From assembly GCA_016784165.1 (NCBI GenBank), contig JADHVD010000006.1, forward strand, positions 74 through 64,073: a stretch of 64,000 nt of DNA, read 5' to 3'. The notes beneath the pieces were generated by a model. That model ran no database searches, was not told the origin of the DNA, and saw nothing but the letters and a program-made list of their open reading frames with translations. The position numbers were made by a program, and so were the translations under genes. This DNA comes from Candidatus Woesearchaeota archaeon. GTDB lineage: Archaea > Nanobdellota > Nanobdellia > Woesearchaeales > BS150m-G63. Every line of letters begins with the position of its first letter. Position 1 is the first letter of the stretch. Below are positions 8,337 through 36,850 of the stretch, in pieces.

Positions 8337-11300
8337 TTAATTAATTGAGCTTATATTTAACTGCTTTATTTTTTTAATCAAAATATCAACAGTCTCTTCT
8401 TCTAAAGTAATGGTTGTTTCAAAGAAGTTGTTACTCTCATCAAATTCAAAAATAGAGTTTTCAGGGTCTACCTCAAAAAAGACTTTGTAATCTCCAAAGG
8501 TAGAATATTCATGTGTTAGAGAAAAATTGTAGGATTCCCAAGGCATAATAGTTTCAGATATTGAACCACCTTCACCCTCACCATCTCCATAATTAATATG
8601 GTAGGTAAAATCATCCACCCAGATAGTACCACCAAGAGCACTTACCTCAATATTGAAAGTGACCAAATTAGGATTTTCAAAACTCTGCTCAAAAGATAAT
8701 AATGCTGGAGTCAAATCAGGAGTTCCATTAATGAAGTAAGACTCTAAACCTATATTATTAGTCTCATTAAACTCATCAATTAAATTGTTAGGGTCTAATT
8801 CAAAGTAGAAAGTGTAATCACCAGCAAAATCATACACGTATGAAACTAAAATAGTAGTCTCTTCTCCAGGTTCAAGCCCCCTTCCACTAAATGAATCTCT
8901 AATTAAATTTCTGCCCCCATAATTAAAATTATAAGCATAATAATAATCGCTCTCTTCTAATCCAATATTCTTAAAAGTGACCTCAACAGTTGTTTCATTT
9001 CCTGCATCTGAAAGAAAAGAACTAATGTTTGTAACGATTAAATCTGGCATAGAAACATTAAAATAAATATTTTCACAATTAGTATTTCCAGAAGTATCAT
9101 TCACACAAGCATAAAAGTAATTATATCCTAAATTAAAATCTTCATAAACTGGATCCTCATAATAAACTGTATTTCCACTATGATTATACCAAATTGTATC
9201 AACTTCTACATTATCAGATGCAGAAAGATTAACAAGGATTTGAGCAGTTTCATAAGTTAATCCATCTAATGGGCTATGAATCAAGATTTCAGGATCATTA
9301 TAGTCTTCCACCATAAAGTTAGCAACATCACAAACTATTTGTCCAAGTGAATCATTAACACATGCAGTCAAAGAATAATTTCCAATTTCAAATTCTAAAA
9401 ATATTGGTTCTTCATAAATAACTGCTGATTCATCATTGATGTCATACCAAACAGTATCGGTTCCTAAATTATCCCAGGCAGAGATATTTAATAATATCTC
9501 TATTGAGCTTTGATCTGAAACATTGTAATAATGAGTGTACCATTCAGAGCCGTAAGGGCTTTGTATTGTTATATTGGGGGGATTATTGTTTATATCAAAT
9601 CTTGTTAATCCACATTCTTCATTACCTGCAGTATCATTTGCACATACTTGCATATGATAGCCATAATCAGAACCAAATCCAGGATACCAATTCCAACCGT
9701 AATCTAAACCATCAACATCAACATAAATTGATCCAGTGTATGTAATATTCATGTTATTATAATTATAAAAAATAGTATCAATTCCAAAGTCACTATCAGC
9801 TGAAAAATTAAGCAGTATCTGTGAAACCTCATTAAACTCAGTTCCGTTAGCTGGGCTATGGATTGTTACAACTGGCTCAGTCGCATTAACAGTAAAGAAA
9901 ACAGAAGCACTATCAGAGAGGCCAGAATTATCACTCATATTAACATATAAAGAATAATTCCCGTTAGGTAGGGTAACATCAACTGGTCCTATATAGGTTT
10001 CATTTTCAAAAACAAATTCATAAGGCCAATATTGTTGTTGAATCCCATACCAAACCCTATCAACACCAAAATTATCCCAAGCAGAAAGATTAATCAAAAC
10101 TTCTGGAGTATCAAATACTTCACCGTGTTCAGGACTGATTATAGTAACATTTGGCCTTGTTACATCAGCATAAAATTCAACATATTTATAACCTATAAAA
10201 CCAAAAGTATTATTTGCCCAAACATTTAATTTATATGTTTTTACATCACCATAAATAGGCCAGCCATACCATTCCCAACTCCAAGGAATATCTGAAACAT
10301 TAACATAAACAGGACCTTCATAATACTCAATACCATTAGTAGTATTATACCAAATTTTATCAATATCTCCAGAAACAGATATATTAATTAAAAACATATC
10401 TGGACCAACTTCTGTTGCATTATCTGGACTGATAATTGTAATACTAAAAGCTCCAATAGGATGATAATCAACATCATTACCATCTCCAGGTATATTATAA
10501 ACATAAGGGTGGCCAGAATTATCTTCAAAATCACTCCAGTAATTACCCACATCACTTAAGTTCCAATTATTATTATGTGAATAATAATATTGGTAAGCAT
10601 TTGCTGAATTATTCTCCCCATTATCAATAAACTGATTATTCCAGATAGTATTATAATCATTGTAATAATTTAAATAAATTCCATAATCACCATTATTCTC
10701 CACAATATTGCCAAATATACTGTTGTTATCATTGTGCCAATCTAAATAAATTCCATAATCACCATTATTCTCCACAATATTGCCAAATATACTGTTGTTA
10801 TAATTGTAATCATATAAATAAATTCCAGTATTATTATTATCATTTAAGGTGTTGTTATATATGTTATTGAAAGAACTGGAATAACCTAAATTAATTCCCT
10901 CATAATTATTTGTAAAAATATTATTATTTAAAGTGTTATATGAAGATATATCTAATGAAGTCCCATTCTCAAAACCAGAAATATTACAATTCTGAATAGT
11001 TGTTCCATTGAATTGATTAATATAAATTCCCATTCCATACGAATCATAATCACCTTCAATCGAATGACTATCACAATCAAGAGTTATATCATTTGCACCT
11101 ATAATTAAACCATTACCAGAACAATTCAAAAGATCTTCTGTTAGTGTTGTATCTTCTGTTATTGTATCTCCACAATCTAGAACAGCATCAATATTAAATG
11201 TGATATAAGCACTATTAGTATTACCAGAAGTATCATTCACACTAACATATAAAGAATATCCATATAGTCCTCCATCTGGTAAAGTAACATTAACAGGTAC

Positions 11301-14165
11301 TGCATAAGTTTCATTAACTATAATCCATTCGTAAGGTTCATAATAATCACTACCCCCCATATATTGTTGGATAGAATACTTAACCCTATCAACACCAAAA
11401 TTATCCCAAGCAGAAAGATTAATCAAAACTTCTGGAATATCAAATACTTCACCGTGTTCAGGACTGATTATAGTAACATTTGGCCTTGTTACATCAGCAT
11501 AAAATTCAACATATTCATAATCTATAAAACCAAAAGTATTATTTGCCCAAACATTTAATTTATATGTTTTTACATCATCATAAATAGGCCAGCCATACCA
11601 TTCCCAGCTCCAAGGAATATCTGAAACATTAACATAAACAGGACTTTCATAATACTCAATACCATTAGTAGTATTATACCAAATTGTATCAACATCTCCA
11701 GAAACAGATATATTAATTAAAAACACATCTGGACCAACTTCTATTGCATTATCTGGACTGATAATTGTAATACTAAAAACCCCCTCGACAGGATGATAAT
11801 CTACACCACCCCCATCTCCAGGAATGTAATATGTTTGATTTTGATAACCAGAATTATCTTCAAAATCACTCCAGTAATTACCCACATCACTTAAGTTCCA
11901 ATTATTATTGTATGAATCATATTCTTCACGAGCATTATCTTCTTCATTATCAATAAACTGATTATTCCATATGGTATTTTCAGAACTATTAGCATGCACA
12001 TAAATTCCATGTTCTGCATTATCATCTAATAGATTATTTGAAATAAAATTATTAGAAGAAAAAGTAAAAATGATCCCAGATTCATTATTATTTGTTATTA
12101 AATTATTGAAGACAGAATTATAATCAGAATAAGATTCTAACGCAACCCCATCATCAAAATTATTCTCTACACTATTTCCAGAGATTATATTAAATTTAGA
12201 ATCAAATAACTGGATCCCATGATTTTCATTATAACTCACAATGTTATTAAAAATAGAATTATAATTAGAATCCTCTTCTAAACCAATTCCATCATCACCA
12301 TTACCATTTACAAGGTTATAAGAAATCTCGCTATTTGTGACCTTAGAGAATTCAATTGCCTTATCATCAGCATAATTTAAATTATTCCCAGAAATGAATA
12401 CATTATTAGAAAAACTAATCTCAAGGATATTTCCGTCCATATATTGAAGGTTATTATCTAATAATTGGATATTCTCACTATCATCAACTTCTATAGCTGT
12501 TCTTGCGTTAGAAATATTACAATTTTTAATTGTTATGTTTTCACTATCATAAACTCCTATTGCTTCATCTCCTACAACAGAATAACCATCACAATCAAGA
12601 ATTATATCATTTAAATCTTCAATAAGTAAACCATGTCCATCAAACTCCCATTCACAATCACTTTGTTCATTACACTCATTTGAATTAGTATACCCACATT
12701 CATTTTCTGTATAATAATCTCCATAACAATCTTCCCATTCATAGTCCCAGTTACATCCATTTGCGCTGAAACACTCTTCATCAGAAGAATCAAAATCCCA
12801 ACAATCTTTTTGCTCACACTCCCCATCACAATTCAAAAGATCTTCTATTAGTGTTGTACTCTCATATATTGTATCTCCACAAGATAAACCTTCATCAATA
12901 GAAGTTTCAGATATTTCCAAATCCCATGTAATTGCTTCAATCGGAAAATCCAATTCAAGCCTACCATAATCATAATCTAAATTGTTTTCTGGGTCTTCTA
13001 TTATCACCCCATAATCAGTCATAACATCCTCGTCGTCTCTACCTATCTCTTCTCCAGAAAGTATAAGATCGCCCCATTCTACTCCATTATCCTCAATCCA
13101 GTCTATATTCCAAACAAGGTCACCAGCATATTCACCATTAGGTGCTGTTGCATCGCCAATATTTTGGAAAGTTACATTAGTGATAGAAGTTCCATTATCA
13201 CCAAAATACACTTGTTTATAATCATCATCAACTTTTATTCTTAATCCTAAAGGATCATAAGATGAATTAAGACTATTTCCATTAATATCTTCTAAACCAA
13301 CTGCATGCATATCCTTTGCAATTAATATCATCTCATATTCATCTGTTTCCCAAATAAAATTATCTTCTCCAGATTCAAAAACGATAGCAATATCACCATC
13401 AAATATTTCTTCACCCTCTTCGTTCCGAAAATTAACGTAATCATCAATTTCTACAGTTACTGATTCATGTTCATAATTATTTATTCTCTTAAATTGAATT
13501 TGTAAATAATCATTTGGAAAATTGATAACATCGCCCAAAGATAATGCTGGTAATTCCCAATCTTCATCTAGATCTCCTTCTAGTTCATCTCTATCTTGAT
13601 TATATTTTACTCCAATATGAGTTAATGTGTTATTGTAATAATCTGATTCAATATCCCAAACCCATTCAGCTTCATCATCGTCATAACCATAGCCAAACTG
13701 CTCTAATGCATTCTCATCATGTACAGTATAGATTTCGCCTTCATATCTAATTGTAAGTGAATCATCCCCCATAGCTTCAATAATTGATAGATCATTTCCC
13801 ATAAACTCAATTTCTAATTCTTCAGATTCATTCAAAGGGATAACAACATCAGCAATCCACCTATAATGCAATCCTGCATCTTCATCAACTGTAACATAAA
13901 CATCAGTCTCATACTCATCATTAGATTCTCCAGTCAATCCAATTAAGGCCTCTTGCCCAATAAACACTTGTTCCTCAAAATCATAATCCACACCAGAATA
14001 AAAAAGAGTATCATCTTTTAATATTGGAATATCATGATTATCATAAATCAAATTAGAATAAAAAGGAGTTGTACCTATAACCAATTCATCTTCTTCAACA
14101 CCATAAACACCAAAAGCTAAACTAGAGAAGAGTATCAATATGACTAAACTAAATAATTTTTTCAT
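8337..14165 (-). CDS. Giant surface protein: S-layer-like N-terminus, right-handed beta-helix (NosD/pectin-lyase-like) blocks, Ig-like repeats, two CARDB-like domains
   Basis: 1942 aa, signal peptide, N-rich GIxL/NxIxxN coils, NNWNLSDVGNYWSDF, PDLIVTNI...ELDPNNLIDEFNETNN. Confidence 0.9.
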   Translation of the reverse strand: MKKLFSLVILILFSSLAFGVYGVEEDELVIGTTPFYSNLIYDNHDIPILKDDTLFYSGVDYDFEEQVFIGQEALIGLTGESNDEYETDVYVTVDEDAGLHYRWIADVVIPLNESEELEIEFMGNDLSIIEAMGDDSLTIRYEGEIYTVHDENALEQFGYGYDDDEAEWVWDIESDYYNNTLTHIGVKYNQDRDELEGDLDEDWELPALSLGDVINFPNDYLQIQFKRINNYEHESVTVEIDDYVNFRNEEGEEIFDGDIAIVFESGEDNFIWETDEYEMILIAKDMHAVGLEDINGNSLNSSYDPLGLRIKVDDDYKQVYFGDNGTSITNVTFQNIGDATAPNGEYAGDLVWNIDWIEDNGVEWGDLILSGEEIGRDDEDVMTDYGVIIEDPENNLDYDYGRLELDFPIEAITWDLEISETSIDEGLSCGDTIYESTTLIEDLLNCDGECEQKDCWDFDSSDEECFSANGCNWDYEWEDCYGDYYTENECGYTNSNECNEQSDCEWEFDGHGLLIEDLNDIILDCDGYSVVGDEAIGVYDSENITIKNCNISNARTAIEVDDSENIQLLDNNLQYMDGNILEISFSNNVFISGNNLNYADDKAIEFSKVTNSEISYNLVNGNGDDGIGLEEDSNYNSIFNNIVSYNENHGIQLFDSKFNIISGNSVENNFDDGVALESYSDYNSVFNNLITNNNESGIIFTFSSNNFISNNLLDDNAEHGIYVHANSSENTIWNNQFIDNEEDNAREEYDSYNNNWNLSDVGNYWSDFEDNSGYQNQTYYIPGDGGGVDYHPVEGVFSITIISPDNAIEVGPDVFLINISVSGDVDTIWYNTTNGIEYYESPVYVNVSDIPWSWEWYGWPIYDDVKTYKLNVWANNTFGFIDYEYVEFYADVTRPNVTIISPEHGEVFDIPEVLINLSAWDNFGVDRVKYSIQQYMGGSDYYEPYEWIIVNETYAVPVNVTLPDGGLYGYSLYVSVNDTSGNTNSAYITFNIDAVLDCGDTITEDTTLTEDLLNCSGNGLIIGANDITLDCDSHSIEGDYDSYGMGIYINQFNGTTIQNCNISGFENGTSLDISSYNTLNNNIFTNNYEGINLGYSSSFNNIYNNTLNDNNNTGIYLYDYNYNNSIFGNIVENNGDYGIYLDWHNDNNSIFGNIVENNGDYGIYLNYYNDYNTIWNNQFIDNGENNSANAYQYYYSHNNNWNLSDVGNYWSDFEDNSGHPYVYNIPGDGNDVDYHPIGAFSITIISPDNATEVGPDMFLINISVSGDIDKIWYNTTNGIEYYEGPVYVNVSDIPWSWEWYGWPIYGDVKTYKLNVWANNTFGFIGYKYVEFYADVTRPNVTIISPEHGEVFDTPEVLINLSAWDNFGVDRVWYGIQQQYWPYEFVFENETYIGPVDVTLPNGNYSLYVNMSDNSGLSDSASVFFTVNATEPVVTIHSPANGTEFNEVSQILLNFSADSDFGIDTIFYNYNNMNITYTGSIYVDVDGLDYGWNWYPGFGSDYGYHMQVCANDTAGNEECGLTRFDINNNPPNITIQSPYGSEWYTHYYNVSDQSSIEILLNISAWDNLGTDTVWYDINDESAVIYEEPIFLEFEIGNYSLTACVNDSLGQIVCDVANFMVEDYNDPEILIHSPLDGLTYETAQILVNLSASDNVEVDTIWYNHSGNTVYYEDPVYEDFNLGYNYFYACVNDTSGNTNCENIYFNVSMPDLIVTNISSFLSDAGNETTVEVTFKNIGLEESDYYYAYNFNYGGRNLIRDSFSGRGLEPGEETTILVSYVYDFAGDYTFYFELDPNNLIDEFNETNNIGLESYFINGTPDLTPALLSFEQSFENPNLVTFNIEVSALGGTIWVDDFTYHINYGDGEGEGGSISETIMPWESYNFSLTHEYSTFGDYKVFFEVDPENSIFEFDESNNFFETTITLEEETVDILIKKIKQLNISSIN
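10053..11910. repeat. Intragenic near-identical duplication of about 520 bp (about 10053-10575 and 11382-11910)
   Basis: Offset 1329 bp (443 codons) at AACCCTATCAACACC and GGACTGATAATTG, becoming 1335 after a 6-nt indel. Confidence 0.9.
10671..10800. repeat. 72-bp-period tandem duplication of one beta-helix coil
   Basis: 58 identical bp at 10671-10728 and 10743-10800 (NNSIFGNIVENNGDYGIYL twice). Confidence 0.9.
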
Positions 14166-14340: not shown

Positions 14341-14439
14341 TCACTTACACATATCATTCAATTTCTCAATAATCCAAACCATTCCAAGAATATCTAACCC
14401 ACAATATTTCAATAATGCTTCCTTAACCACTCTTTCCAA
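14341..14439 (-). pseudogene. Startless 3' fragment resembling the C-terminus of DUF2779-family proteins
   Basis: KEALLKYCGLDILGMVWIIEKLNDMCK*; resembles the LLxYCxLDxxxMV tail (by eye). Confidence 0.45.
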
Positions 14440-14447
14440 CTAATCTA
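14421..14447. repeat. 27-bp direct repeat, right copy, overlapping the DUF4430 stop codon
   Basis: Identical to 7901-7927; encodes RLVGKSG*. Confidence 0.9.
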
Positions 14448-14872
14448 AATTCAATATTGTCACCTGGCTGGATGATATATTCACCAACACCCACTCTACC
14501 AATTTCACCATCAACATAATAAGCCCAATAAAAATCATCTCCACCACATATGTTATCAATACAATTGACAAGCACCATGTACTGCAATTCTTCCATTTGT
14601 ATAACATGTAACTCAAGTAAGATATCAAGTGGAGTTCTACCTGACTCAATCAATTCAATGGTAGTGCCACCTACACTCCTAATAATCAAAAAAGTATCAT
14701 CCTCAACAGATGCATTATCTACAACCCCATTTAGCACATAACCAATAAAAGTAAGTACAGCGATAAATACCACCAAAAACAAAAGAATTCTCATTTCTTT
14801 CAATCTAGAGGCATCAAACCTTTTTTTCAAAAATTTTTTACTTTTTTTCAGAATTTTTTTCATTGTTTTCAC
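14423..14872 (-). CDS. Membrane-anchored DUF4430 (transcobalamin C-terminal-like) protein
   Basis: TM helix followed by TPLDIL...VNCIDN...FYWAYYVDGE...VGVGEYIIQPGDNIEFR; start may be the ATG at 14863. Confidence 0.8.
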   Translation of the reverse strand: MKTMKKILKKSKKFLKKRFDASRLKEMRILLFLVVFIAVLTFIGYVLNGVVDNASVEDDTFLIIRSVGGTTIELIESGRTPLDILLELHVIQMEELQYMVLVNCIDNICGGDDFYWAYYVDGEIGRVGVGEYIIQPGDNIEFRLVGKSG

Positions 14873-15270
14873 TTCTTTTTTTTAGGTTCTTTCATTTTCT
14901 TTGTGATTGCTAATTTCTCACCACAACCACCACAAACAAAAACAATAGATTTGACCCCTTGAAATGTTTTTCTAATATAAGGAACATCTGCTTCACCTTC
15001 ATGTTCACATTTAGGACAAACATATTTAATCTCCATATTTAAAGATTCTTCATGTTCTTTTTTATCCTCAACAAAACCACATTCAGGACAAACATATTCT
15101 TTAGCTCTTATTTTCACTTTGCCCTTCTCAACAGGTTTTCCCATTTTAACTTTTCCGCATTTAGGACATTGTTTCTTATACACCCAAGCTTTAGCTTTTC
15201 CTAGCTCCCCTAAAGTTCTATTACTAAAATATAAACATTGATCCATGCTTTCTGGTTCCACTAATCCCAT
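14869..15270 (-). CDS. Multi-Zn-ribbon hypothetical protein
   Basis: CPKC, CPECG, CPKC and CGGCG motifs. Confidence 0.8.
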   Translation of the reverse strand: MGLVEPESMDQCLYFSNRTLGELGKAKAWVYKKQCPKCGKVKMGKPVEKGKVKIRAKEYVCPECGFVEDKKEHEESLNMEIKYVCPKCEHEGEADVPYIRKTFQGVKSIVFVCGGCGEKLAITKKMKEPKKKK

Positions 15271-16570: not shown

Positions 16571-19500
16571 ATGACAAAAATTTCTAAAATAAAAAAAAGA
16601 GATGGGAGCATAGCCCCATTTGATCCAGAGAAAATAGCAAACGCAATATTCAAAGCAGCAGAATCAGTTGGCGGAACAAATAAAACGCTTTCTAAAAGAT
16701 TAACAGAAGAAATCACCTTAATACTAGAAGAAAAATTTAGTAACGAAATTCCTGAGGTAGAAACTATTCAAGATATTGTTGAAAACACATTAATCAATAA
16801 AGGACATGTAAAAACCGCAAAGTCTTACATCATTTATAGGCATGAACATAAATCTATAAGGGATGAAAAAAAAGCAGTTCTTGGAAAAATAAGCCCTTCT
16901 AAAAAATTAAATGTAAATGCTCTTACAGTATTAAAAGAAAGATATTTGTTAAAAAATATGAAAGGAGAATTAATAGAATCTCCTGAAGATTTATTTGAAA
17001 GAATAGCAAAGGACATATCTAAATCAGATAAAAAATACAATAAAAAAGCAGATTTAAAGAAAATTGCACAAGAATTTTATGATATGATGGCAAACCTTGA
17101 TTTTTTGCCAAACTCACCTACATTAATGAATGCCGGAACAGACATTCAACAATTAGCAGCGTGTTTTGTACTTCCTATTGAAGACAGCATGGAAGGAATT
17201 TTTGGTACATTAAGAGATGCTGCTATAATCCATAAAAGTGGTGGAGGAACAGGATTCTCTTTCTCTAGATTAAGAGCTAAAAGTTCAATTGTAAAATCCA
17301 CTAAAGGTGTAGCCTCTGGACCAGTTTCATTCCTAACAGTATACAACGCAGCAACTGAAGTTATCAAACAAGGAGGAAAGAGAAGAGGCGCAAACATGGG
17401 TATATTAAAAATTGACCACCCAGACATTTTAGAATTCATAAATTGCAAAGAAAAAAATGAATCAATAACTAACTTCAATATTTCAGTAGGATTAACAGAA
17501 GATTTCATGAAAGCAGTTGAAAACGATGAAGAATATGATCTAATAAACCCTGCAGACGGTTTATGTGTACAAAAATTAAATGCTCAAACAGTATTCAATT
17601 TGTTAGTTAGTTCTGCTTGGCGTAATGGAGATCCAGGAATTGTGTTTTTAGATAGAATAAATAAAGATAATCCAACACCAGTAGTAGGAGAAATTGAATC
17701 AACTAACCCTTGTCTTGCACCAGATACTTTAATTTCAACAAATAATGGACTTGAAAAAATTAAAGAACTTTACAAAAAATATAAAGATAAAGAAATTATA
17801 ATTCTTACAGACGATAGAACAATAACTAAAAAAATAAAACATAACCAAAGAGAATATTACCAAAATGGAGTTGCATTAAGAAAAGCAAAAATATTCAAAA
17901 CAGGAATAAAAAATATTCTCGAAATAGAATTAAAAAATGGACAAACATTAAAAGTCACACCAGACCATAAAATTCTAAGTACAAAAGGATGGAAAGAAGC
18001 AAAAAAACTAAAACAAGGAGAAGAAGTCCTTATTCAATCAGGAAAAGGATTTTATCCAGATTCAGATAAAATTGGAGAAGAATTAGGGTTATTTATGGGG
18101 TGGCTATCAGGAGACGGATGGCTTACTTCTGATAAAAAAAGTATTGGAATGGTATTTGCATCTAATGAAGAATATATCATGAAAAAGATGCAAAAAATTG
18201 CAGAAAAAAACAAAGCAGGAAAAGGAATATTCAATAAAAGAGAAAACAAAACTCTTCAATTACTTTTTAAAAGAAAGAAATTTGTAGAATTAATAAGCTC
18301 ACTTGATATACAACCTAAAAGGGCGCATAAAAAAAGAGTACCAAAAACAATATTTACTTCATCAGAAAAAACAGTTACTGCGTATCTCAATGGATTATTC
18401 TGTTCAGATGGAACTATTAATTTTATAGATCAAGCACATAGAGATATAAGATTAAGCTCTACGTCTAAAGAATTATTAAAAGATACCCAACTTCTACTTC
18501 TAAATTTAGGAATATTCTCTAATATTTATGAAAGAACAAAAAAGAATCAAGCAAATTTTAGTTATACAACAATAAAAGGAGAAAAAAGAATATATAATAG
18601 TAAACCCTACTTTGAATTAATCATAAATGGAAATAATATATGTAAATTTAAAAGTGCCATAGGAGATTTGATTCATAAAGAAAAAAATAAAAAAATAAAC
18701 AAAATTAATAGGTGTTCGAGAAAGAATACAAAATTCATAAGCAAAATAAAAAGTATAAACAAAGATAAAAAAACAGAAGTATATGACATTTCAGAAAAAA
18801 TAACAAATTCTTTAATTGCAAATGGAATCGTTGTTCACAATTGTGGAGAGCAACCACTTCTCCCGTATGAAGCATGTAATCTTGGTTCAATTAATCTTGG
18901 AAACTTTATCCAAAACCAAAAAATTGACTGGAAAAGATTAAAGAAAATAATTCATAAATCAATTCATTTTTTAGATAATGTAATAGATAGAAGCAAATAC
19001 CCCCTTCCTGAAATCACAAAAATGGTCAACGCAAATAGAAAAGTGGGATTGGGAGTTATGGGTTGGGCAGATATGTTAATGCAATTAGGAATAGCTTACA
19101 ATAGTGAAGAAGGAATAAAATTAGCAGAAGAAGTAATGAAATTCGTAAAAGACGAGTCTGATAAAGCATCAACCATTCTAGCAAAAGAAAGAGGAGTATT
19201 TCCAAATTGGAACGATAGTATATACAACAAAGAGAGCAGATACTTTCAAGGAACCCATATAAAATTAAGAAACGCAACAAGAACCACAATTGCACCAACA
19301 GGAACTATTGGTATGATTGCTGATGCATCTGGTGGAGTAGAACCCTTATTTGCTTTAAGTTATGTAAAAAGAGTCATGGATGGAAAAGAACTATTTTACA
19401 TTGATAAAAACTTCAAAAAAGCATTGCAAGAACACAAAATATTTTCAAAAAGTTTAATGGAAAAAGTAATCAATCAAGGCTCAATCCAACATATCGATGA

Positions 19501-19924
19501 AATACCAGAAGAATTAAAGAAAACTTTTGTGGTTGCGCATGATATCTCTCCTGAATATCACCTAAAAATGCAGGCAGCATTCCAAAAATACACAGATAAC
19601 GCAGTATCTAAAACAGTTAATTTTTCAAATGACTCAACAATGGAAAATGTTGAAGAAACATATCTGCTTGCATATAAACTGGGATGTAAAGGTGTAACTA
19701 TCTATAGAGATGGGAGTAAAGATCAACAAGTGTTAAATCTTAATATCAATATTGAAAAAGAAAAAGAGGAAAAAAAGGAGAAAGAAAATAAAGAGAGAGA
19801 ACAAAAAGAGAAAGAACAAAAAGAAGAGGATAAAGATATTTGTCCTGAATGTGGTAGTAAATTAATCTTTCAAGAGGGTTGTTGTAAATGTTCTTCTTGT
19901 AGTTATTCTGTTTGTAACGGATAA
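16571..19924 (+). CDS. nrdJ: Class II (adenosylcobalamin-dependent) ribonucleotide reductase with ATP-cone, intein and C-terminal Zn ribbon
   Basis: KIKKRDG ATP-cone, [52 protein letters not shown]. Confidence 0.95.
17711..18841 (+). mobile_element. Intein (377 aa) with LAGLIDADG homing endonuclease
   Basis: Starts CLAPDT after TNP, ends VVHN before CGEQP; FMGWLSGDG and [10 protein letters not shown] blocks. Confidence 0.95.
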
Positions 19925-19929
19925 ATAAC

Positions 19930-19969
19930 TAAACCTCCTTAAACCTTAGTAAACCCTACTAAACAAAAA
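19930..19969. repeat. 10-bp-period TAAACC array between nrdJ and cobO
   Basis: TAAACCTCCT TAAACCTTAG TAAACCCTAC TAAACAAAAA. Confidence 0.6.
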
Positions 19970-19974
19970 CCAAA

Positions 19975-20565
19975 ATGAAAAAAAAACTCGGATTGGTGCA
20001 TGTATACACAGGAAATGGTAAAGGCAAAACCTCAATGTCTTTAGGGATAGCGCTAAGAGCTGCAGGATACAATCTTAATGTGCATATGATTCAATTTCTA
20101 AAAAGTGGAGACACAGGAGAATTATTTGCTGTAGAAAATTATCTTCCAAATATGAAAATTGCTCAATTTGGAAAAGAAGCATTGATAGATCAACAAACAC
20201 ATATTCACGAATTTAGAAAGGAATCTACAAAAAAGAACAATAATGGCAATTATAAATTTTTACCTGATGAAGAAGAAGCAGAATCTGTAAGACGAGCTTT
20301 TGAGTATGCCCATAAAATTGCAACCAGTGGGGATCATGATGTTCTTATTCTTGATGAAATCAATTGTGCTGTAGAAAAAGGATTAATAAATATAGAGGAA
20401 ATGTTAAACTTAATGAAAATAAAATCAGAAAATACGGAACTCATTTTAACAGGAAGAGGAGCGCCTAAAGAATTAATAGAAGCAGCAGATTATGTCACAG
20501 AAATGGGAGAGGTAAAACACCCCTATAATAAAAAGATATTAGCAAGAGAAGGTATTGATTACTGA
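19975..20565 (+). CDS. cobO: Cob(I)alamin adenosyltransferase (CobO/BtuR family)
   Basis: VHVYTGNGKGKT, QFLKS, LILDEI, ELILTGR, ADYVTEM...KHPY...AREGIDY. Confidence 0.95.
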   Translation: MKKKLGLVHVYTGNGKGKTSMSLGIALRAAGYNLNVHMIQFLKSGDTGELFAVENYLPNMKIAQFGKEALIDQQTHIHEFRKESTKKNNNGNYKFLPDEEEAESVRRAFEYAHKIATSGDHDVLILDEINCAVEKGLINIEEMLNLMKIKSENTELILTGRGAPKELIEAADYVTEMGEVKHPYNKKILAREGIDY

Positions 20566-34175: not shown

Positions 34176-35507
34176 TCAGAGTTCCATCTTTTTAATAAAT
34201 CCAAATATAATTAATACAACCACTAAAAGCAGTAATAAAACCAAGCTAAATACAATCAAAAAAGGAGTCATGTTTTCAAACTCAATTTCTTCACTTTCAG
34301 TTATTTCTGCATTTCCAGAAACTGGTTGAACAATCACATTAGCTGCAATATTAGCCATATCTAAATGCTGTTGAACAAGTAAATCAATCCCTTCAACTAC
34401 AGCACTTTCACAACTAACATTAAGATAAACAACCTCTTGTTCAGTGTCACTACCATAATCTGCTTTAACAGTGATTGGAAAAATTCCCCCAACTAAAGCT
34501 TCAACATAATAACTCTTCTCAAACATATTATCTTCATTTTTATAGTTACTGTCTAATTCAATATTTTCAAAAACACTGAATCCCAACTCATCACTATACA
34601 ACAAAAGAGAAACATCTTCATCTTTTTTCCCAATATTCACTAATTCAACATCTAATTTAGCTGTATCACCACATTCAACCATACTATCAATATCGCTAAA
34701 AAGCAAAAGCTCATGGGTTTGTTTATCTAATTCAACCTCAAACTCAAGATTTTGTTCATAATTCACCCCAAAATCATCTTCTCCATTTAATTCAATACTC
34801 AATTCATAATTTTTCTCTTTCAATTGTAAAGGAATCTCAAACTCAATCTCAATTTCTTCTTCTTTATCTGCAGAAATAGAAAGCTCTTCAACCTCTAATT
34901 CAATATCACCTCCATTATCAATATCTCTAAGCACAACTCTCAACTCGACATTTTCCATCTCAACATCAGTATCTTTATCAAACAAATTCTTAATATCAAA
35001 TTTCAGTTTCACAATAGAACCAGGTCTAACGTCTTTAATCGTACCCCCAGTTTCATCTACATTTTTATCTTTATGTCCATCAACATATGCTTTTAAATTA
35101 TCTATCTTTAACATTACTGGAATCGTCGTCCCATCCCCATAACTCAAAACCAATAAATCACCATCATTTACTTCATAACTGCTTAATCCAACCATAGAAT
35201 ATTCTAATTCACCATTATCTGCAGTATAAAACGCCCAATACTCCCCATCATATTCACATCCACCACCAACAGCAGCTTCAGTTCCAACACCACCTATTTT
35301 ACACAACATATATCCCCAACCAGGGTATTCATTCCAAAAAGCACTAAACCCGCTTTTTTCTAATAATTCATACCCACTAGACCCTTCATCAACATCCAAG
35401 CATTCACTTTCTATCTTATCTGGAAATTCTACAACCACGCAAACTTCTGCTGCAACCCCTAACCCAACTAAAACTAAAATCATCATCACCCAAATTATCT
35501 GTTTCAT
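34176..35507 (-). CDS. DUF4430 (cobalamin-binding-like) domain fused to S-layer-like Ig modules, with C-terminal TM anchor
   Basis: Signal peptide, GYELLEK...MLCKIGG...YWAFY...VGLSSYEVNDGDLLVLSYG, then a module shared with 25552-28374. Confidence 0.8.
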   Translation of the reverse strand: MKQIIWVMMILVLVGLGVAAEVCVVVEFPDKIESECLDVDEGSSGYELLEKSGFSAFWNEYPGWGYMLCKIGGVGTEAAVGGGCEYDGEYWAFYTADNGELEYSMVGLSSYEVNDGDLLVLSYGDGTTIPVMLKIDNLKAYVDGHKDKNVDETGGTIKDVRPGSIVKLKFDIKNLFDKDTDVEMENVELRVVLRDIDNGGDIELEVEELSISADKEEEIEIEFEIPLQLKEKNYELSIELNGEDDFGVNYEQNLEFEVELDKQTHELLLFSDIDSMVECGDTAKLDVELVNIGKKDEDVSLLLYSDELGFSVFENIELDSNYKNEDNMFEKSYYVEALVGGIFPITVKADYGSDTEQEVVYLNVSCESAVVEGIDLLVQQHLDMANIAANVIVQPVSGNAEITESEEIEFENMTPFLIVFSLVLLLLLVVVLIIFGFIKKMEL

Positions 35508-36229
35508 TCTTTTTCCCCCTCGCCAATTTTACTTTTAATTTCATAAATATTTTCACTTTCAGTTTTATTTTTATTTTTATTTTTCAAAATCTTGATCATA
35601 TCTTTACACATTTTTTTTTCATTAAATCCTCCTTTTTCTTCAACAAAAGTTTTAGCTTTTCCTAAACCTAAAGAAAAAATAACATTAGAAACCAAATGTA
35701 CTAATGTAAAAGGTAAAGCTGTAAAAAATATCGCAAATATACTAAAAGGCATAAACATCAAAGTGCCAAAATTGACAATGATTTCATAAGCGAGTGTTGC
35801 TATTCCTGCAACAATCATAATCTCAAACCATTTAGCTTTCTTCCTCAAATATCCCCCAAAAAAGCCAGCCACCCCAAAACCTAATGCCTGAAAAATTGTC
35901 CAAGGACCTTGACCTCCAAACATAAAAAAGTTAGAAACATATAAAGCACCTGCCCCAGTCAAAAATCCTTTTTTCTTTCCAAATAACCACCCAGCCAATA
36001 TTGCAAAAAAAGTAATTGGTTCAGCACTTGGTACTGATTGCATGGGAATTCTCAACAACGCCCCACCAAACATCAACCCAATCAAAACAAGATACTCCTT
36101 CATCTTAAGTAAATCTAACTGTTTTAATAAAAGATGTAAAGCTAACCTCTCTTTACCTTTCAATTTTGTAGATACTTTATTCTCTTTCTTTAATTTCTCT
36201 TTCTCTTTTTGGACAACTTTTTGTTTCAT
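35504..36229 (-). CDS. cbrT: ECF transporter S-component, CbrT-like (cobalamin)
   Basis: LLRIPMQSVPSAEPIT...SNFFMFGGQGPWTIFQ...HLVSN; about 6 TM helices; likely start 36229 or 36244 rather than 36346. Confidence 0.8.
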   Translation of the reverse strand: MKQKVVQKEKEKLKKENKVSTKLKGKERLALHLLLKQLDLLKMKEYLVLIGLMFGGALLRIPMQSVPSAEPITFFAILAGWLFGKKKGFLTGAGALYVSNFFMFGGQGPWTIFQALGFGVAGFFGGYLRKKAKWFEIMIVAGIATLAYEIIVNFGTLMFMPFSIFAIFFTALPFTLVHLVSNVIFSLGLGKAKTFVEEKGGFNEKKMCKDMIKILKNKNKNKTESENIYEIKSKIGEGEKE

Positions 36230-36230
36230 T

Positions 36231-36698
36231 TTAAGCCATATCATACAATAACGCCAAATAAGCTTTATTAAAAATCTTAAACCAATCAAACCGCTCTTTA
36301 ACATCAGGAGACATTTGAAAAAGTTCTGATCTCGATAACATATCATTAAATTTTTTAGTTTGTATCACTTCATCAACCTCTTCATAAGATATGGATTCCT
36401 GAATTTCTATTTCTTTTTCTTGTTTTCTTTCTTCATTAACAGATTCATAAGAAAGATAAGGATTTTCTTTTGCTTCACCACCCAAATAAGAAAACAATTC
36501 AGAATAATCTATTTGTTTATCAATTAAATTAGTAGAATAATCAAATTTTATTTTACCCTCATCTGATTGAGTAGAATCATCATCCTCAATTTTAGCATCA
36601 ATGGTTTCTTTTTTATTTTCCCCTTTTCGCTCTAGTTCAATTGCCTGAAGCACTTCCACCAAAAGAGTATTTTCTTTCTTTATCAAAATATCACCCAA
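36231..36698 (-). CDS. Acidic hypothetical protein, first gene after the riboswitch
   Basis: 155 aa; TTG start at 36698 or 36686, each with a GGTGA SD-like site; stop coupled to cbrT. Confidence 0.7.
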   Translation of the reverse strand: MGDILIKKENTLLVEVLQAIELERKGENKKETIDAKIEDDDSTQSDEGKIKFDYSTNLIDKQIDYSELFSYLGGEAKENPYLSYESVNEERKQEKEIEIQESISYEEVDEVIQTKKFNDMLSRSELFQMSPDVKERFDWFKIFNKAYLALLYDMA

Positions 36699-36811
36699 TC
36701 ACCGCCTTGAGAAAGAATAAATTCCCTTGCTCGAGGTTTTATGTCCATAAGTTTTCCGACTCTAACGGTTGCGGCACAGTCAAGGGTTTTCACCTTAGTT
36801 TCCTTAATAGA
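36699..36811 (-). ncRNA. Cobalamin riboswitch, compact class II-like
   Basis: P1 UCUA/UGGA; P3 UAAG/CUUA; J3/4 GAAACU; P4 AAGG-UGAAAAC-CCUU; ACUGUGCCGCAA; P6 CCG-UUAGAGU-CGG; linker CAUAAAAC; upstream of B12 uptake genes. Confidence 0.88.
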
Positions 36812-36830
36812 TAAAATATAAAAAAACAGA

Positions 36831-36850
36831 ATAAATATATAAAACTTTCC
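36831..36850 (-). promoter_or_regulatory. BRE/TATA promoter of the riboswitch operon
   Basis: GGAAAGTTTTATATATTTAT; predicted TSS near 36812, the 5' end of the aptamer. Confidence 0.65.

What the first reader, a model, noticed from the sequence alone, without database searches (positions are those of the whole stretch)
34176..36698. Riboswitch-led B12 capture operon: CbrT-like S-component plus a transcobalamin-like domain on an S-layer-type stalk
Seen: three coupled genes (unknown, GQGPWT-type S-component, DUF4430 fused to Ig modules and a TM anchor). No EcfA/A'/T genes lie in the window. The consumer (nrdJ) and activator (cobO) are adjacent at 16571-20565, and a second DUF4430 protein is at 14423-14872. 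Established: CbrT pairs with DUF4430-type binding proteins in bacteria; BtuM is a solitary cobalamin S-component. Inference: a salvage circuit (surface capture, import, adenosylation, dNTP synthesis) in a probable symbiont, with the stalk reaching beyond the S-layer.
Basis: partly seen in the sequence, partly recalled or inferred. Interest (0 to 1): 0.75.

Follow-up and report, generated by a model that had tools for sequence, protein, structure and literature searches.

The report
Riboswitch-controlled B12 capture operon, DPANN archaeon
A tiny-genome archaeon that cannot make vitamin B12 carries a three-gene operon behind a B12-sensing RNA switch: an orphan protein, a small vitamin-transporter-fold membrane protein with no ATPase partner in the genome, and a membrane-anchored surface protein whose tip has the fold of the B12-binding domain of human transcobalamin. 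I found no published description of this system in Archaea.

Summary
An AdoCbl-II (class-II cobalamin) aptamer at 36741-36819(-) scores 46 bits against a cut-off of 36.5. It leads three tightly coupled genes.

- ORF1 belongs to an orphan protein family.
- The second gene is a 241-aa ECF-type S-component (Pfam DUF6580).
- The third gene encodes 443 aa: a signal peptide, a divergent DUF4430 domain, two repeated beta-rich modules and a C-terminal membrane anchor. Its AlphaFold model matches only transcobalamin, haptocorrin, intrinsic factor and a bacterial DUF4430 protein (TM 0.80 to the human TC beta domain).

The host is a Woesearchaeales (DPANN) archaeon of 0.87 Mb. I found no EcfT, no ECF-type ATPase, no CobS and no CbiB. 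It does have NrdJ, CobO and a mutase-like B12 protein.

The S-component occurs in 45 of 301 genomes of the order. 38 of those 45 lack EcfT, and the aptamer is 13-fold enriched among them.

- The S-component is not a CbrT-family member.
- The operon does not co-occur with nrdJ or cobO across the order.
- The Ig fold of the stalk is unproven, and whether it reaches past the S-layer is untested.

New here:
- ORF1 belongs to a family that recurs directly behind this aptamer.
- Relatives without the riboswitch carry a DUF4443 regulator and a palindromic operator instead.

The parts
36835..36844 (-). Archaeal TATA-box-like promoter element (TTTTATATAT), about 16-25 nt upstream of the aptamer
   Evidence: Read directly from the sequence. 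A TTTATA(T/A)A-type box lies at a similar distance upstream of most of the nine related aptamer copies examined. Its promoter function is inferred.
36741..36819 (-). AdoCbl-II (class-II cobalamin) riboswitch aptamer
   Evidence: RF01689 scores 46 bits against a gathering score of 36.5. A lineage model R1 scores 80.5 bits. On 10 archaeal copies the covariation score is 0.249 against 0.122 for shuffles (0 of 500 shuffles reach it), and 4 of 5 P4 pairs show compensatory changes.
36694..36740 (-). Expression platform. The long hairpin CCUCGAG...CUCAAGG (36705-36736) leaves the SD GGUGA (36699-36703) and the UUG start (36696-36698) free. The alternative hairpin CUCAA[GGCGGUGA]UUGGG (36694-36711) has a GGC in its loop that is complementary to L5 GCC.
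   Evidence: RNAfold gives the long hairpin as the MFE at -9.4 kcal/mol. The forced alternative gives -6.5. In the sister species, L5 is also GCC, a GGC follows the same CUCAAGG, and RNAfold again gives the long hairpin as the MFE. The kissing-loop OFF state is inferred.
36231..36698 (-). ORF1: 155-aa acidic cytoplasmic protein of an orphan DPANN family. It is the first gene behind the aptamer.
   Evidence: The reading frame is kept open in the sister species, with dN/dS 0.51. Other assemblies call it as a gene (P0124, P0125). A profile finds 60 cluster representatives at E<=1e-3. Family members sit directly behind the same aptamer in L023, L038, L046/L047 and L044/L045. There are no Pfam or PDB relatives.
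35504..36229 (-). Solitary ECF-type S-component (Pfam DUF6580), 241 aa, with a Lys-rich N-terminal tail. It is the predicted corrinoid translocator.
   Evidence: PF20221 scores 34.9 bits against a cut-off of 27. The AF2 model has pLDDT 88, and 21 of its 23 best Foldseek matches are ECF S-components. There are 401 homologues, and the listed best 120 are 52-66 % identical where they come from other genera. dN/dS is 0.15.
34176..35507 (-). ORF3: 443-aa type-I surface protein. It has a signal peptide (aa 1-20), a DUF4430/transcobalamin-beta-like head (aa ~21-128, nt 35124-35447), two repeated beta-rich modules (aa 137-262 and 263-388, nt 34344-35099), a linker, and a C-terminal TM anchor (aa ~415-437, nt 34197-34265).
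   Evidence: hhalign against small DUF4430 proteins gives 96.4 %. The AF2 core has pLDDT above 90. The Foldseek top 18 are all transcobalamin, haptocorrin, intrinsic factor or 3U7Z. The two modules align to each other at E 8e-6. NCBIfam gives a partial hit to an S-layer protein model, E 9e-12. dN/dS is 0.17.
14423..14872 (-). Small membrane-anchored DUF4430 protein (149 aa). In most relatives this gene lies inside the operon, between the S-component and the ORF3-like gene.
   Evidence: PF14478 scores 40.4 bits. Orthologues lie next to the S-component in at least 18 of 30 related loci. It is the only copy in the genome.
16571..19924 (+). nrdJ, the B12-dependent class II ribonucleotide reductase, with an ATP-cone and a LAGLIDADG intein. 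It is a consumer of the cofactor.
   Evidence: NF006417 scores 985 bits (cut-off 961) and TIGR02504 scores 712 bits. Pfam finds the intein and LAGLIDADG domains.
19975..20565 (+). cobO/btuR-type ATP:corrinoid adenosyltransferase
   Evidence: PF02572 scores 182.7 bits. TIGR00708 scores 156.7 bits, just under its cut-off.

Best explanation
This is a vitamin B12 (corrinoid) scavenging operon of a B12-auxotrophic Woesearchaeales (DPANN) archaeon. A class-II cobalamin riboswitch switches it off when the cell has enough cofactor.

Proposed route:
- ORF3 is anchored in the membrane by its C-terminal helix. It holds a transcobalamin-beta-like (DUF4430) head away from the membrane on two beta-rich modules, and the head captures free corrinoid.
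- The small membrane-anchored DUF4430 protein probably takes the ligand over. Here it is encoded 20 kb away; in most relatives it lies inside the operon.
- The 6-helix S-component (DUF6580) carries the ligand across the membrane without an ECF ATPase module, as solitary BtuM and BioY do.
- Directionality would come from intracellular trapping: adenosylation by CobO and binding to NrdJ and a mutase-like B12 protein.
- ORF1 is a cytoplasmic protein of unknown role that belongs to the same regulon.

Proposed regulation: without ligand, a long hairpin leaves the Shine-Dalgarno sequence and the UUG start of ORF1 open. With ligand, an L5-L13 kissing loop (GCC with GGC) stabilises a hairpin that buries them. 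The two downstream genes follow by translational coupling.

Shown: the aptamer, the folds, the gene order and its conservation, the absence of an ECF module and of late B12 synthesis genes, and the presence of B12 enzymes.

Inferred: ligand binding by each protein, the relay order, ECF-independent transport, and the switching mechanism.
For: Aptamer:
- It scores above the Rfam cut-off.
- Ten archaeal copies show covariation.
- 19 of 301 genomes of the order have it: 12 of the 45 with the S-component against 7 of the 256 without (OR 13, p 7e-7).
- In 11 of those 12 genomes it lies upstream of the S-component on the same contig.
- In two other genomes the same aptamer lies directly upstream of cobO (coordinates).

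Proteins:
- The ORF3 head matches the human TC beta domain (5NO0/5NP4, TM 0.80, rmsd 2.0 A). 5NP4 is that isolated domain bound to cyanocobalamin.
- The S-component has the S-component fold and passes the DUF6580 cut-off.
- S-component, small DUF4430 and ORF3-like genes are adjacent in most of 30 related loci.

No ECF module:
- The genome has no EcfT.
- Its ABC ATPases are of DrrA, TagH/Wzt and MacB/LolD types and stay below the ECF cut-offs.
- 38 of the 45 genomes with the S-component lack EcfT. One of them, G087, is a single 0.9-Mb contig scored 99 % complete.

B12 need:
- The genome has NrdJ, CobO and a fusion of a B12-binding domain (DxHxxG) with a MutE-like domain.
- It has no CobS and no CbiB.

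Precedent: solitary BtuM transports B12 and co-localises with btuR, for which metabolic trapping was proposed (PMC6072759).

Platform: RNAfold energies for the window. In the sister species, the L5 GCC, the downstream GGC and the same long hairpin are all kept.
Against: - No binding or transport has been measured for any part.
- Across the order the S-component is not associated with cobO or nrdJ. 16 genomes carry it without an NrdJ-like gene, and about 74 % of genomes without it have NrdJ. It is therefore one B12 route among several, or the substrate is broader than B12.
- Only about a third of the related operons examined carry the aptamer.
- EcfT is mildly enriched among genomes with the S-component (16 % against 6 %, p 0.03). 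In some lineages the S-component may therefore dock on an ECF module.
- The genome is 85.6 % complete.
- The S-component has no invariant Cys like the cobalt ligand of BtuM, and no specific similarity to CbrT or BtuM.
- The proposed kissing loop is not in the loop of the most stable hairpin. In most other lineages the platform carries a different conserved motif (GGAUCGUGGAG) that I could not explain.
- These counts are not corrected for phylogeny.
Confidence: 0.7

Rival explanations
1. It is a conventional ECF transporter. The S-component docks on a shared EcfAA'T module that lies in the unassembled 14 % of the genome or is too divergent to detect. Transport would then be ATP-driven, as in ECF-CbrT.
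For: - The genome is only 85.6 % complete.
- EcfT occurs in 7 of the 45 genomes with the S-component, a mild enrichment (p 0.03).
- The only hit of the single sequence in PDB is CbrT, which needs the module (PMC5997447).
Against: - The 96 %-complete sister genome G001 lacks EcfT. So does G087, a single 0.9-Mb contig scored 99 % complete, and so do G025, G121, G150 and G169 at 97-100 %.
- No ATPase of the genome reaches the ECF ATPase cut-offs.
- The EcfT search found the family in 11 of 14 control genomes, three archaea among them.
Confidence: 0.1
2. The operon handles a corrinoid-related but different cargo, such as cobinamide or another incomplete corrinoid, or cobalt. Alternatively, ORF3 is mainly a host-attachment or S-layer protein whose beta-grasp head binds something other than B12, and the riboswitch merely co-regulates it.
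For: - DUF4430 is a beta-grasp domain with few characterised members.
- ECF-CbrT also takes up cobinamide (PMC5997447).
- The ORF3 body matches part of an S-layer protein model.
- From my own knowledge, B12 riboswitches also control cobalt transporters in bacteria.
- The operon does not co-occur with nrdJ or cobO.
Against: - The genome has no CobS or CbiB, so cobinamide or cobalt could not be turned into a usable cofactor.
- The 18 best fold matches are all cobalamin carriers or DUF4430 proteins.
- The same three-protein set recurs with the aptamer in many lineages.
Confidence: 0.12
3. The aptamer match is a bacterial-type relic that does not work in an archaeal cell. In that case the operon is constitutive here, or is controlled only by proteins, as in the relatives that carry the DUF4443 regulator.
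For: - As of 2021 the only experimentally shown archaeal riboswitch was the fluoride one (PMC8241225).
- Most related operons have no aptamer.
- The switching mechanism is not resolved.
Against: - The aptamer is kept across genera and families with compensatory changes.
- It lies at a similar distance behind an archaeal TATA-like box in most of the copies examined.
- It is 13-fold enriched with the operon.
- In the loci examined, none has both an aptamer and the DUF4443 regulator or its palindrome, and this genome has no such regulator.
Confidence: 0.06

Closest known systems
BtuM of Thiobacillus denitrificans (solitary S-component-type B12 transporter; PDB 6FFV; PMC6072759)
   Same: Both are small S-component-fold membrane proteins in an organism without an ECF module. 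Both are linked to a corrinoid adenosyltransferase: btuR there, cobO here. Transport without ATPase, with metabolic trapping, is the proposed mode.
   Different: There is no detectable sequence similarity. BtuM is not among the 50 best Foldseek matches. The family has no conserved Cys to act as cobalt ligand. The host is an archaeon without an outer membrane or BtuB. Two extracytoplasmic DUF4430 proteins accompany the S-component, and a riboswitch controls the operon. cobO lies 14 kb away rather than adjacent.
ECF-CbrT of Lactobacillus delbrueckii and its nrdJ-cbrS-cbrT-pduO cluster (PDB 6FNP; PMC5997447)
   Same: It is a B12-specific S-component in a B12 auxotroph whose cluster joins NrdJ and an adenosyltransferase. 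It is the only PDB chain hit by the single sequence (E 0.005), and it shares a G-x-G-x-W-T motif.
   Different: CbrT belongs to Pfam PF12822 and needs EcfAA'T. The archaeal protein is DUF6580, has an extra Lys-rich N-terminal tail and a C-terminal helix, and has no ECF module. Profile similarity is not significant.
Class-II cobalamin riboswitches (Rfam RF01689 AdoCbl-II / 'AdoCbl-variant', env8HyCbl type; Weinberg 2010, PMC2864571)
   Same: The aptamer matches the family model over all 81 positions, above the gathering score, and keeps the P3-P6 core.
   Different: It lies behind an archaeal TATA-type promoter. The outer helix pairs poorly: 57 % of cells are paired. The expression platform differs between lineages, and in most of them it has no obvious RBS-bearing L13. 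McCown 2017 lists TPP, fluoride, FMN, Mg2+-I and guanidine-II as the archaeal classes, not cobalamin (PMC5473149).
Transcobalamin / intrinsic factor / haptocorrin beta domain, and bacterial DUF4430 proteins (5NO0, 5NP4, 3U7Z)
   Same: The ORF3 head has the same beta-grasp fold (TM 0.78-0.80 normalised to the isolated domain). The isolated human beta domain binds cyanocobalamin (title of 5NP4).
   Different: There is no alpha domain. Sequence identity is 16-21 %. Many homologues carry an extra Cys-rich insert. The domain is fused to a repeat stalk and a membrane anchor.

Membership tests
Rfam RF01689 AdoCbl-II riboswitch | Score at or above the curated gathering score over the full model | tested here: met
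   46 bits against 36.5, model positions 1-81.
Rfam RF01689 AdoCbl-II riboswitch | Conserved secondary structure supported by covariation | tested here: met
   Ten archaeal copies give a covariation score of 0.249 against 0.122 for shuffles (0 of 500 reach it). Slid controls give 0.07-0.16. P4 has 4 of 5 compensatory pairs. The outer helix is weak.
Rfam RF01689 AdoCbl-II riboswitch | Binds a cobalamin and changes gene expression | not testable with these tools
   Only indirect support: the gene context, and a sequestering hairpin that can be drawn.
ECF-type S-component superfamily | Six-helix S-component fold | tested here: met
   The AF2 model has pLDDT 88. FolT, PanT, RibU, ThiT and BioY chains make up 21 of the 23 best Foldseek matches, with probability 0.8-1.0.
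Pfam DUF6580 (PF20221) | Score above the Pfam gathering cut-off | tested here: met
   34.9 bits against 27. Most homologues carry the same precomputed family.
CbrT family (as represented by PDB 6FNP_A) | Same Pfam family, or significant sequence similarity to CbrT | tested here: not met
   The 6FNP_A fragment is PF12822 at 43 bits and gets no DUF6580 hit. The window protein gets no PF12822 hit. phmmer gives E 0.005 and the profile gives E 0.97.
Group-II ECF transporter | EcfT and EcfA/A' encoded in the genome | tested here: not met
   No PF02361 hit in the genome. The ATPases stay below the ECF cut-offs. 38 of 45 related carriers also lack EcfT.
BtuM family | Conserved Cys as axial cobalt ligand near the outer face | tested here: not met
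   No invariant Cys lies among the 34 invariant columns. The only nearly invariant Cys (C208) is in the C-terminal tail.
BtuM family | Occurs in organisms without an ECF module | tested here: met
DUF4430 / transcobalamin beta domain (ORF3 head) | Pfam PF14478 match on the sequence itself | tested here: not met
   No hit at E<0.1. 5 of 24 homologues do hit, with a best E of 4e-5.
DUF4430 / transcobalamin beta domain (ORF3 head) | Homology by profile and the same fold | tested here: met
   hhalign gives 96.4 %, E 1.2e-9. Foldseek ranks 1-18 are all TC, HC, IF or 3U7Z, with TM 0.80 to 5NO0.
DUF4430 / transcobalamin beta domain (ORF3 head) | Binds corrinoid | not testable with these tools
   No docking or assay was available.
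CARDB / Ig-like stalk modules | Significant match to a beta-sandwich family | tested here: inconclusive
   There are two internal repeats (E 8e-6). The match to the CARDB domain of the neighbouring 1942-aa protein has E 0.084. Pfam hits are all below threshold. NCBIfam gives a partial hit to an S-layer protein model.

The most novel reading that the evidence does not exclude
DPANN archaea have their own three-tier, ATPase-free B12 acquisition line. It would run from a transcobalamin-like head on a stalk, to a membrane-proximal DUF4430 protein, to a solitary DUF6580 S-component, with an orphan cytoplasmic protein family (ORF1) acting as the intracellular acceptor or trap. Control would come either from a cobalamin riboswitch working on archaeal transcripts or, in sister lineages, from a DUF4443 transcription factor that would then be a protein B12 sensor. 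That would give the first cobalamin riboswitch class active in Archaea, a function for DUF6580 and DUF4443, and a case of RNA and protein sensors replacing each other on the same operon.
Probability: 0.3. Interest if true: 0.8.

Novelty: new variant of a known kind. Interest (0 to 1): 0.62.

Why it matters
- DPANN archaea make up a large share of archaeal diversity, have minimal genomes and are thought to live off other cells. How they obtain cofactors is largely unknown. This operon gives a concrete, testable route for B12.
- The operon puts a cobalamin riboswitch into Archaea. Surveys list only TPP, fluoride and a few rare classes there, and as of a 2021 paper only the fluoride switch had been shown experimentally.
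- It assigns a likely function to two uncharacterised families: DUF6580 and the archaeal stalked DUF4430 proteins.
- It points to two more families for study: the orphan ORF1 family and the DUF4443 regulators.
- A solitary S-component paired with extracellular binders would extend the BtuM idea of ATP-free vitamin uptake to another domain of life.

Tried and rejected
- Pfam and NCBIfam on ORF3 alone found no DUF4430. A word-based homologue search for ORF3 found only 3 proteins. I therefore collected homologues from loci next to the S-component.
- A lineage-specific covariance model found no further aptamers in the 30 related loci. The loci without a match therefore do not hold a close variant of this aptamer within about 1.5 kb.
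- I expected cobO and nrdJ to co-occur with the operon. They do not.
- The ORF3 body against the neighbouring CARDB domain was not significant. The full-length ORF3 profile had no PDB hit.
- The ORF1 family had no Pfam or PDB hit.
- I looked for a pairing partner in the aptamer for the conserved GGAUCGUGGAG motif and for an L13-type kissing loop in the other lineages. I found none that covaries. I considered a short upstream ORF starting at its GUG, but that frame is not conserved.
- Rodionov 2009 could not be read.
- I rejected contamination by bacterial DNA. The operon lies between archaeal ProRS and the proteasome beta subunit, both here and in relatives.
Full report
**What is there.** The window is contig C17 of an 865-kb, 26-contig genome that is 85.6 % complete. 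GC content is about 31 %. The neighbouring genes are archaeal: aCPSF1-type nuclease, proteasome beta subunit and archaeal-type ProRS. The closest named homologues of its proteins come from Woesearchaeota and Nanoarchaeota (DPANN) assemblies.

Three genes lie head to tail on the minus strand.
- ORF1 is 36231-36698.
- An S-component is 35504-36229. Its ATG lies one base after the ORF1 stop.
- ORF3 is 34176-35507. Its start overlaps the preceding stop.

Upstream, Rfam's AdoCbl-II model (RF01689) matches 36741-36819(-) over its full length. The score is 46 bits against a gathering score of 36.5, and this is the only match in the genome. A TTTTATATAT box lies about 20 nt upstream of the aptamer. 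A similar box lies upstream of most related copies.

**The riboswitch is a conserved structured RNA in these archaea.**
- I found the aptamer in 19 of 301 genomes of the order. Twelve of these are among the 45 genomes with the S-component, and seven are among the 256 without it (odds ratio 13, p 7e-7, not corrected for phylogeny).
- In 11 of the 12 it lies upstream of the S-component on the same contig.
- Ten copies aligned to a model built here give a covariation score of 0.249 against 0.122 for shuffles (0 of 500 shuffles reach it). The slid controls are clearly lower. Four of five P4 pairs change on both sides. The outermost helix pairs poorly.
- In two genomes without the S-component, the aptamer coordinates lie directly upstream of a cobO gene. 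These are G076 C70:469632-469710 before 469767-470273, and G294 C44:4521-4587 before 3960-4463 on the minus strand. This is further evidence that the RNA belongs to a B12 regulon.

In the literature I could search, McCown et al. 2017 list TPP, fluoride, FMN, Mg2+-I and guanidine-II as the riboswitch classes seen in Archaea (PMC5473149). A 2021 paper says the fluoride switch is the only archaeal riboswitch shown experimentally (PMC8241225). No paper listed in my search on riboswitch and Woesearchaeota-type terms contained the word riboswitch.

**How the switch may work here (inferred).**
- The most stable fold of the platform is a long hairpin, CCUCGAG...CUCAAGG (36705-36736, -9.4 kcal/mol). 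It leaves the Shine-Dalgarno GGUGA and the UUG start of ORF1 unpaired.
- The same CUCAA can instead pair with UUGGG, which contains the start codon. This forms a hairpin whose loop, GGCGGUGA, carries the Shine-Dalgarno sequence and a GGC complementary to the GCC in loop L5 of the aptamer.
- The sister species has the same L5 GCC, a GGC after the same CUCAAGG, and the same long hairpin as its most stable fold. I did not fold its alternative hairpin.
- This resembles the L5-L13 kissing loop of class-II cobalamin riboswitches as I know it, but it is not proven.
- Most other lineages have L5 CCC and a different conserved platform: GGAUCGUGGAG followed by a GUCC...GGAC hairpin. I could not explain it.

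**The S-component.**
- The 241-aa protein passes Pfam DUF6580 (34.9 bits against 27) and is sub-threshold for the riboflavin S-component family.
- Its AlphaFold model (pLDDT 88) matches ECF S-components (FolT, PanT, RibU, ThiT, BioY) in 21 of the 23 best Foldseek ranks.
- It is not a CbrT-family member. CbrT is the only PDB hit of the single sequence, but only at E 0.005. With a 36-sequence profile that hit falls to E 0.97. A CbrT fragment falls in a different Pfam family, PF12822.
- The family has no conserved Cys of the kind BtuM uses as cobalt ligand. Its invariant residues include M63, Q64, E70, the GGxGxW motif, N153 and H178.
- It is highly conserved. The listed homologues from other genera are 52-66 % identical, and dN/dS against the sister species is 0.15.

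**No energising module.**
- The genome has no EcfT.
- Its ABC ATPases resemble DrrA, TagH/Wzt and MacB/LolD types. None reaches the ECF ATPase cut-offs.
- Of the 45 genomes of the order with the S-component, 38 lack EcfT. These include the 96 %-complete sister genome and a single 0.9-Mb contig scored 99 % complete.
- EcfT is nonetheless mildly enriched among the carriers (16 % against 6 %, p 0.03). Use of an ECF module in some lineages cannot be excluded.
- The precedent is BtuM, a solitary S-component that supports B12 uptake in E. coli and co-localises with btuR (PMC6072759).

**ORF3.**
- Its N-terminus is a signal peptide followed by a domain that Pfam does not recognise.
- I collected 23 homologous N-domains from genes next to the S-component in related loci.
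- Their profile matches a profile of the small DUF4430 proteins of the same loci at 96.4 % probability, E 1.2e-9. Five of the 24 hit Pfam DUF4430 on their own.
- The AlphaFold model has a core pLDDT above 90. Its 18 best Foldseek matches are transcobalamin, haptocorrin, intrinsic factor and the Ruminococcus gnavus DUF4430 protein 3U7Z. The next hit has E 0.1. TM is 0.80 and rmsd 2.0 A to the isolated human TC beta domain (5NO0). That domain has been crystallised bound to cyanocobalamin (5NP4).
- The rest of ORF3 is two homologous modules of about 125 aa (hhalign 84 %, E 8e-6), a linker of about 25 aa, and a C-terminal membrane helix.
- The modules resemble part of an NCBIfam S-layer protein model (E 9e-12, partial). 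They gave no significant match to CARDB or any Ig family.
- 'Stalk' is therefore a fair description, 'Ig' is unproven, and the reach beyond the S-layer is speculation.

**The operon in relatives.**
- The usual order is aptamer or operator, S-component, small membrane- or lipid-anchored DUF4430 protein, ORF3-like protein, and sometimes a second stalk protein.
- ORF3-like genes lie next to the S-component in at least 24 of 30 loci. Small DUF4430 genes do so in at least 18 of 30.
- In the window's genus the small DUF4430 gene has left the operon and sits at 14423-14872 (PF14478, 40 bits). It is the only copy in the genome.
- This arrangement suggests a relay from a distal binder to a membrane-proximal binder to the permease. 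The order of the relay is inferred.

**ORF1.**
- The 155-aa acidic protein has no signal peptide or membrane helix and no Pfam hit.
- Its frame is kept open in the sister species. Overall dN/dS is 0.51, and the C-terminal two-thirds are much better conserved.
- A profile search of 1.8 billion representatives found 60 proteins at E<=1e-3. They are 80-260 aa long and share the motifs DY-x-KLFSYLG and NS-x-(D/E)WE-x-FKLW-x-K-x-D-x-VMY.
- Where contigs were long enough, family members lie directly behind the same aptamer and in front of the S-component. This holds for L023 (which also has a second aptamer in front of the S-component), L038 (aptamer 72.5 bits) and L046/L047 (73 bits).
- In the short contigs L044/L045 a family member also follows the aptamer (49 bits). 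The gene after it is unidentified or off the contig.
- Three other members, on short contigs, had no aptamer.
- There are no Pfam or PDB relatives.
- ORF1 is a genuine member of the regulon. Its function is unknown; a cytoplasmic corrinoid acceptor is one guess.

**B12 economy of the host.**
- NrdJ is confirmed: 985 bits on NF006417 and 712 bits on TIGR02504. It carries a LAGLIDADG intein.
- CobO follows it.
- A second candidate B12 enzyme lies on contig C9. It has a B12-binding domain with DxHxxG (DVHIQG) fused to a methylaspartate-mutase-E-like domain.
- CobS and CbiB are absent, so the cell must import complete cobamides.
- Across the order the operon is not tied to these genes. cobO occurs in 49 % of carriers against 43 % of non-carriers. 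NrdJ-like genes occur in 64 % against 74 %. The 'circuit' is a functional reading for this genome, not a co-inherited module. Other B12 routes must exist in the order.

**Alternative regulation in relatives.**
- Ten related loci without the aptamer encode a divergent regulator. It has a PH0730-like winged helix and a DUF4443 domain, both above the Pfam cut-offs.
- Seven loci, five of them among those ten, carry the palindrome TGGATAT-N-ATATCCA. Where I could place it, it lies in front of the operon genes.
- No locus had both an aptamer and the regulator or palindrome. The window's genome has no such regulator.
- This points to an RNA sensor and a protein regulator replacing each other on the same operon.

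**Comparison and novelty.**
- In function the system is closest to BtuM with BtuR, and to the nrdJ-cbrS-cbrT-pduO cluster of Lactobacillus (PMC5997447).
- It is a member of neither family.
- It differs in five ways: it is archaeal, it uses a DUF6580 S-component, it has one or two extracytoplasmic transcobalamin-like binders with one on a repeat stalk, it is controlled by a class-II cobalamin riboswitch behind an archaeal promoter, and it includes an orphan first gene.
- I rate it a new variant of a known kind.
- Earlier notes of this scan describe the same system in other DPANN and Patescibacteria genomes. I treated these as leads only. My results were obtained independently and agree with them. 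Within the scan this window is therefore one more instance. It adds the ORF1 family, the tallies across the order and the negative co-occurrence result.

**Limits.** Nothing here has been measured at the bench. The genome is incomplete. The tallies ignore phylogeny. 

Noticed in passing
L012, L010, L014, L025, L022, L029, L015, L017, L034, L026 (divergent gene next to the operon); palindromes e.g. L014:438 and 1193, L025:1483 and 2302: Related operons without the aptamer have a divergently encoded regulator of about 190 aa (PH0730-like wHTH plus DUF4443). Seven loci, five of them with the regulator, carry the palindrome TGGATAT-N-ATATCCA, which lies in front of the operon genes where I could place it. 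No locus has both an aptamer and the regulator or palindrome. The regulator is a candidate protein B12 sensor.
   Followed up: partly
G076:C70:469632-469710 and G294:C44:4521-4587: The same AdoCbl-II aptamer lies directly upstream of a cobO (PF02572) gene in two genomes of the order that lack the S-component. This rests on coordinates only; I did not read the loci.
   Followed up: partly
L023 (G052:C3), aptamers at 2944-3014(-) and 2163-2237(-): There are two aptamers in one locus. The first precedes an ORF1-family gene (175 aa) and the second precedes the S-component.
   Followed up: partly
L007:191-3148 (G040), and the ends of ORFs upstream of the S-component in L011, L013 and L020: In some lineages a large orphan protein occupies the slot behind the aptamer (985 aa in G040, no Pfam hit). 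Its C-terminal end reads like a DUF4430 domain (...NGxxxxxxxxxYxLxxGDxIxxxY).
   Followed up: no
downstream of the aptamers in L019, L024, L032, L035 and L004: A conserved motif, GGAUCGUGGAG followed by a GUCC-loop-GGAC hairpin and UCUC, replaces the window's platform in most lineages. Its role is unexplained. It could be an SD plus GUG start of a short leader ORF, or a structural element.
   Followed up: partly
genome contig C9:10099-11790(-): A 553-aa fusion of a B12-binding domain (DVHIQG, which fits DxHxxG) with a methylaspartate-mutase-E-like domain. It is a second likely B12-dependent protein in this minimal genome.
   Followed up: partly
window 16571-19924(+): NrdJ is interrupted by an intein with a LAGLIDADG homing endonuclease domain (Pfam; roughly aa 391-757).
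   Followed up: no
window 8337-14165(-) and 14869-15270(-): The displaced small DUF4430 gene lies between a 1942-aa surface protein (NosD/beta-helix, Big_7 and CARDB domains) and a 133-aa zinc-ribbon protein whose stop overlaps its start.
   Followed up: no
L038 and L046/L047: A TrmB-family regulator gene follows the ORF3-like gene in both contigs. In L038, ProRS lies two genes upstream and a proteasome subunit gene lies downstream, as in the window. The locus therefore looks vertically inherited.
   Followed up: no
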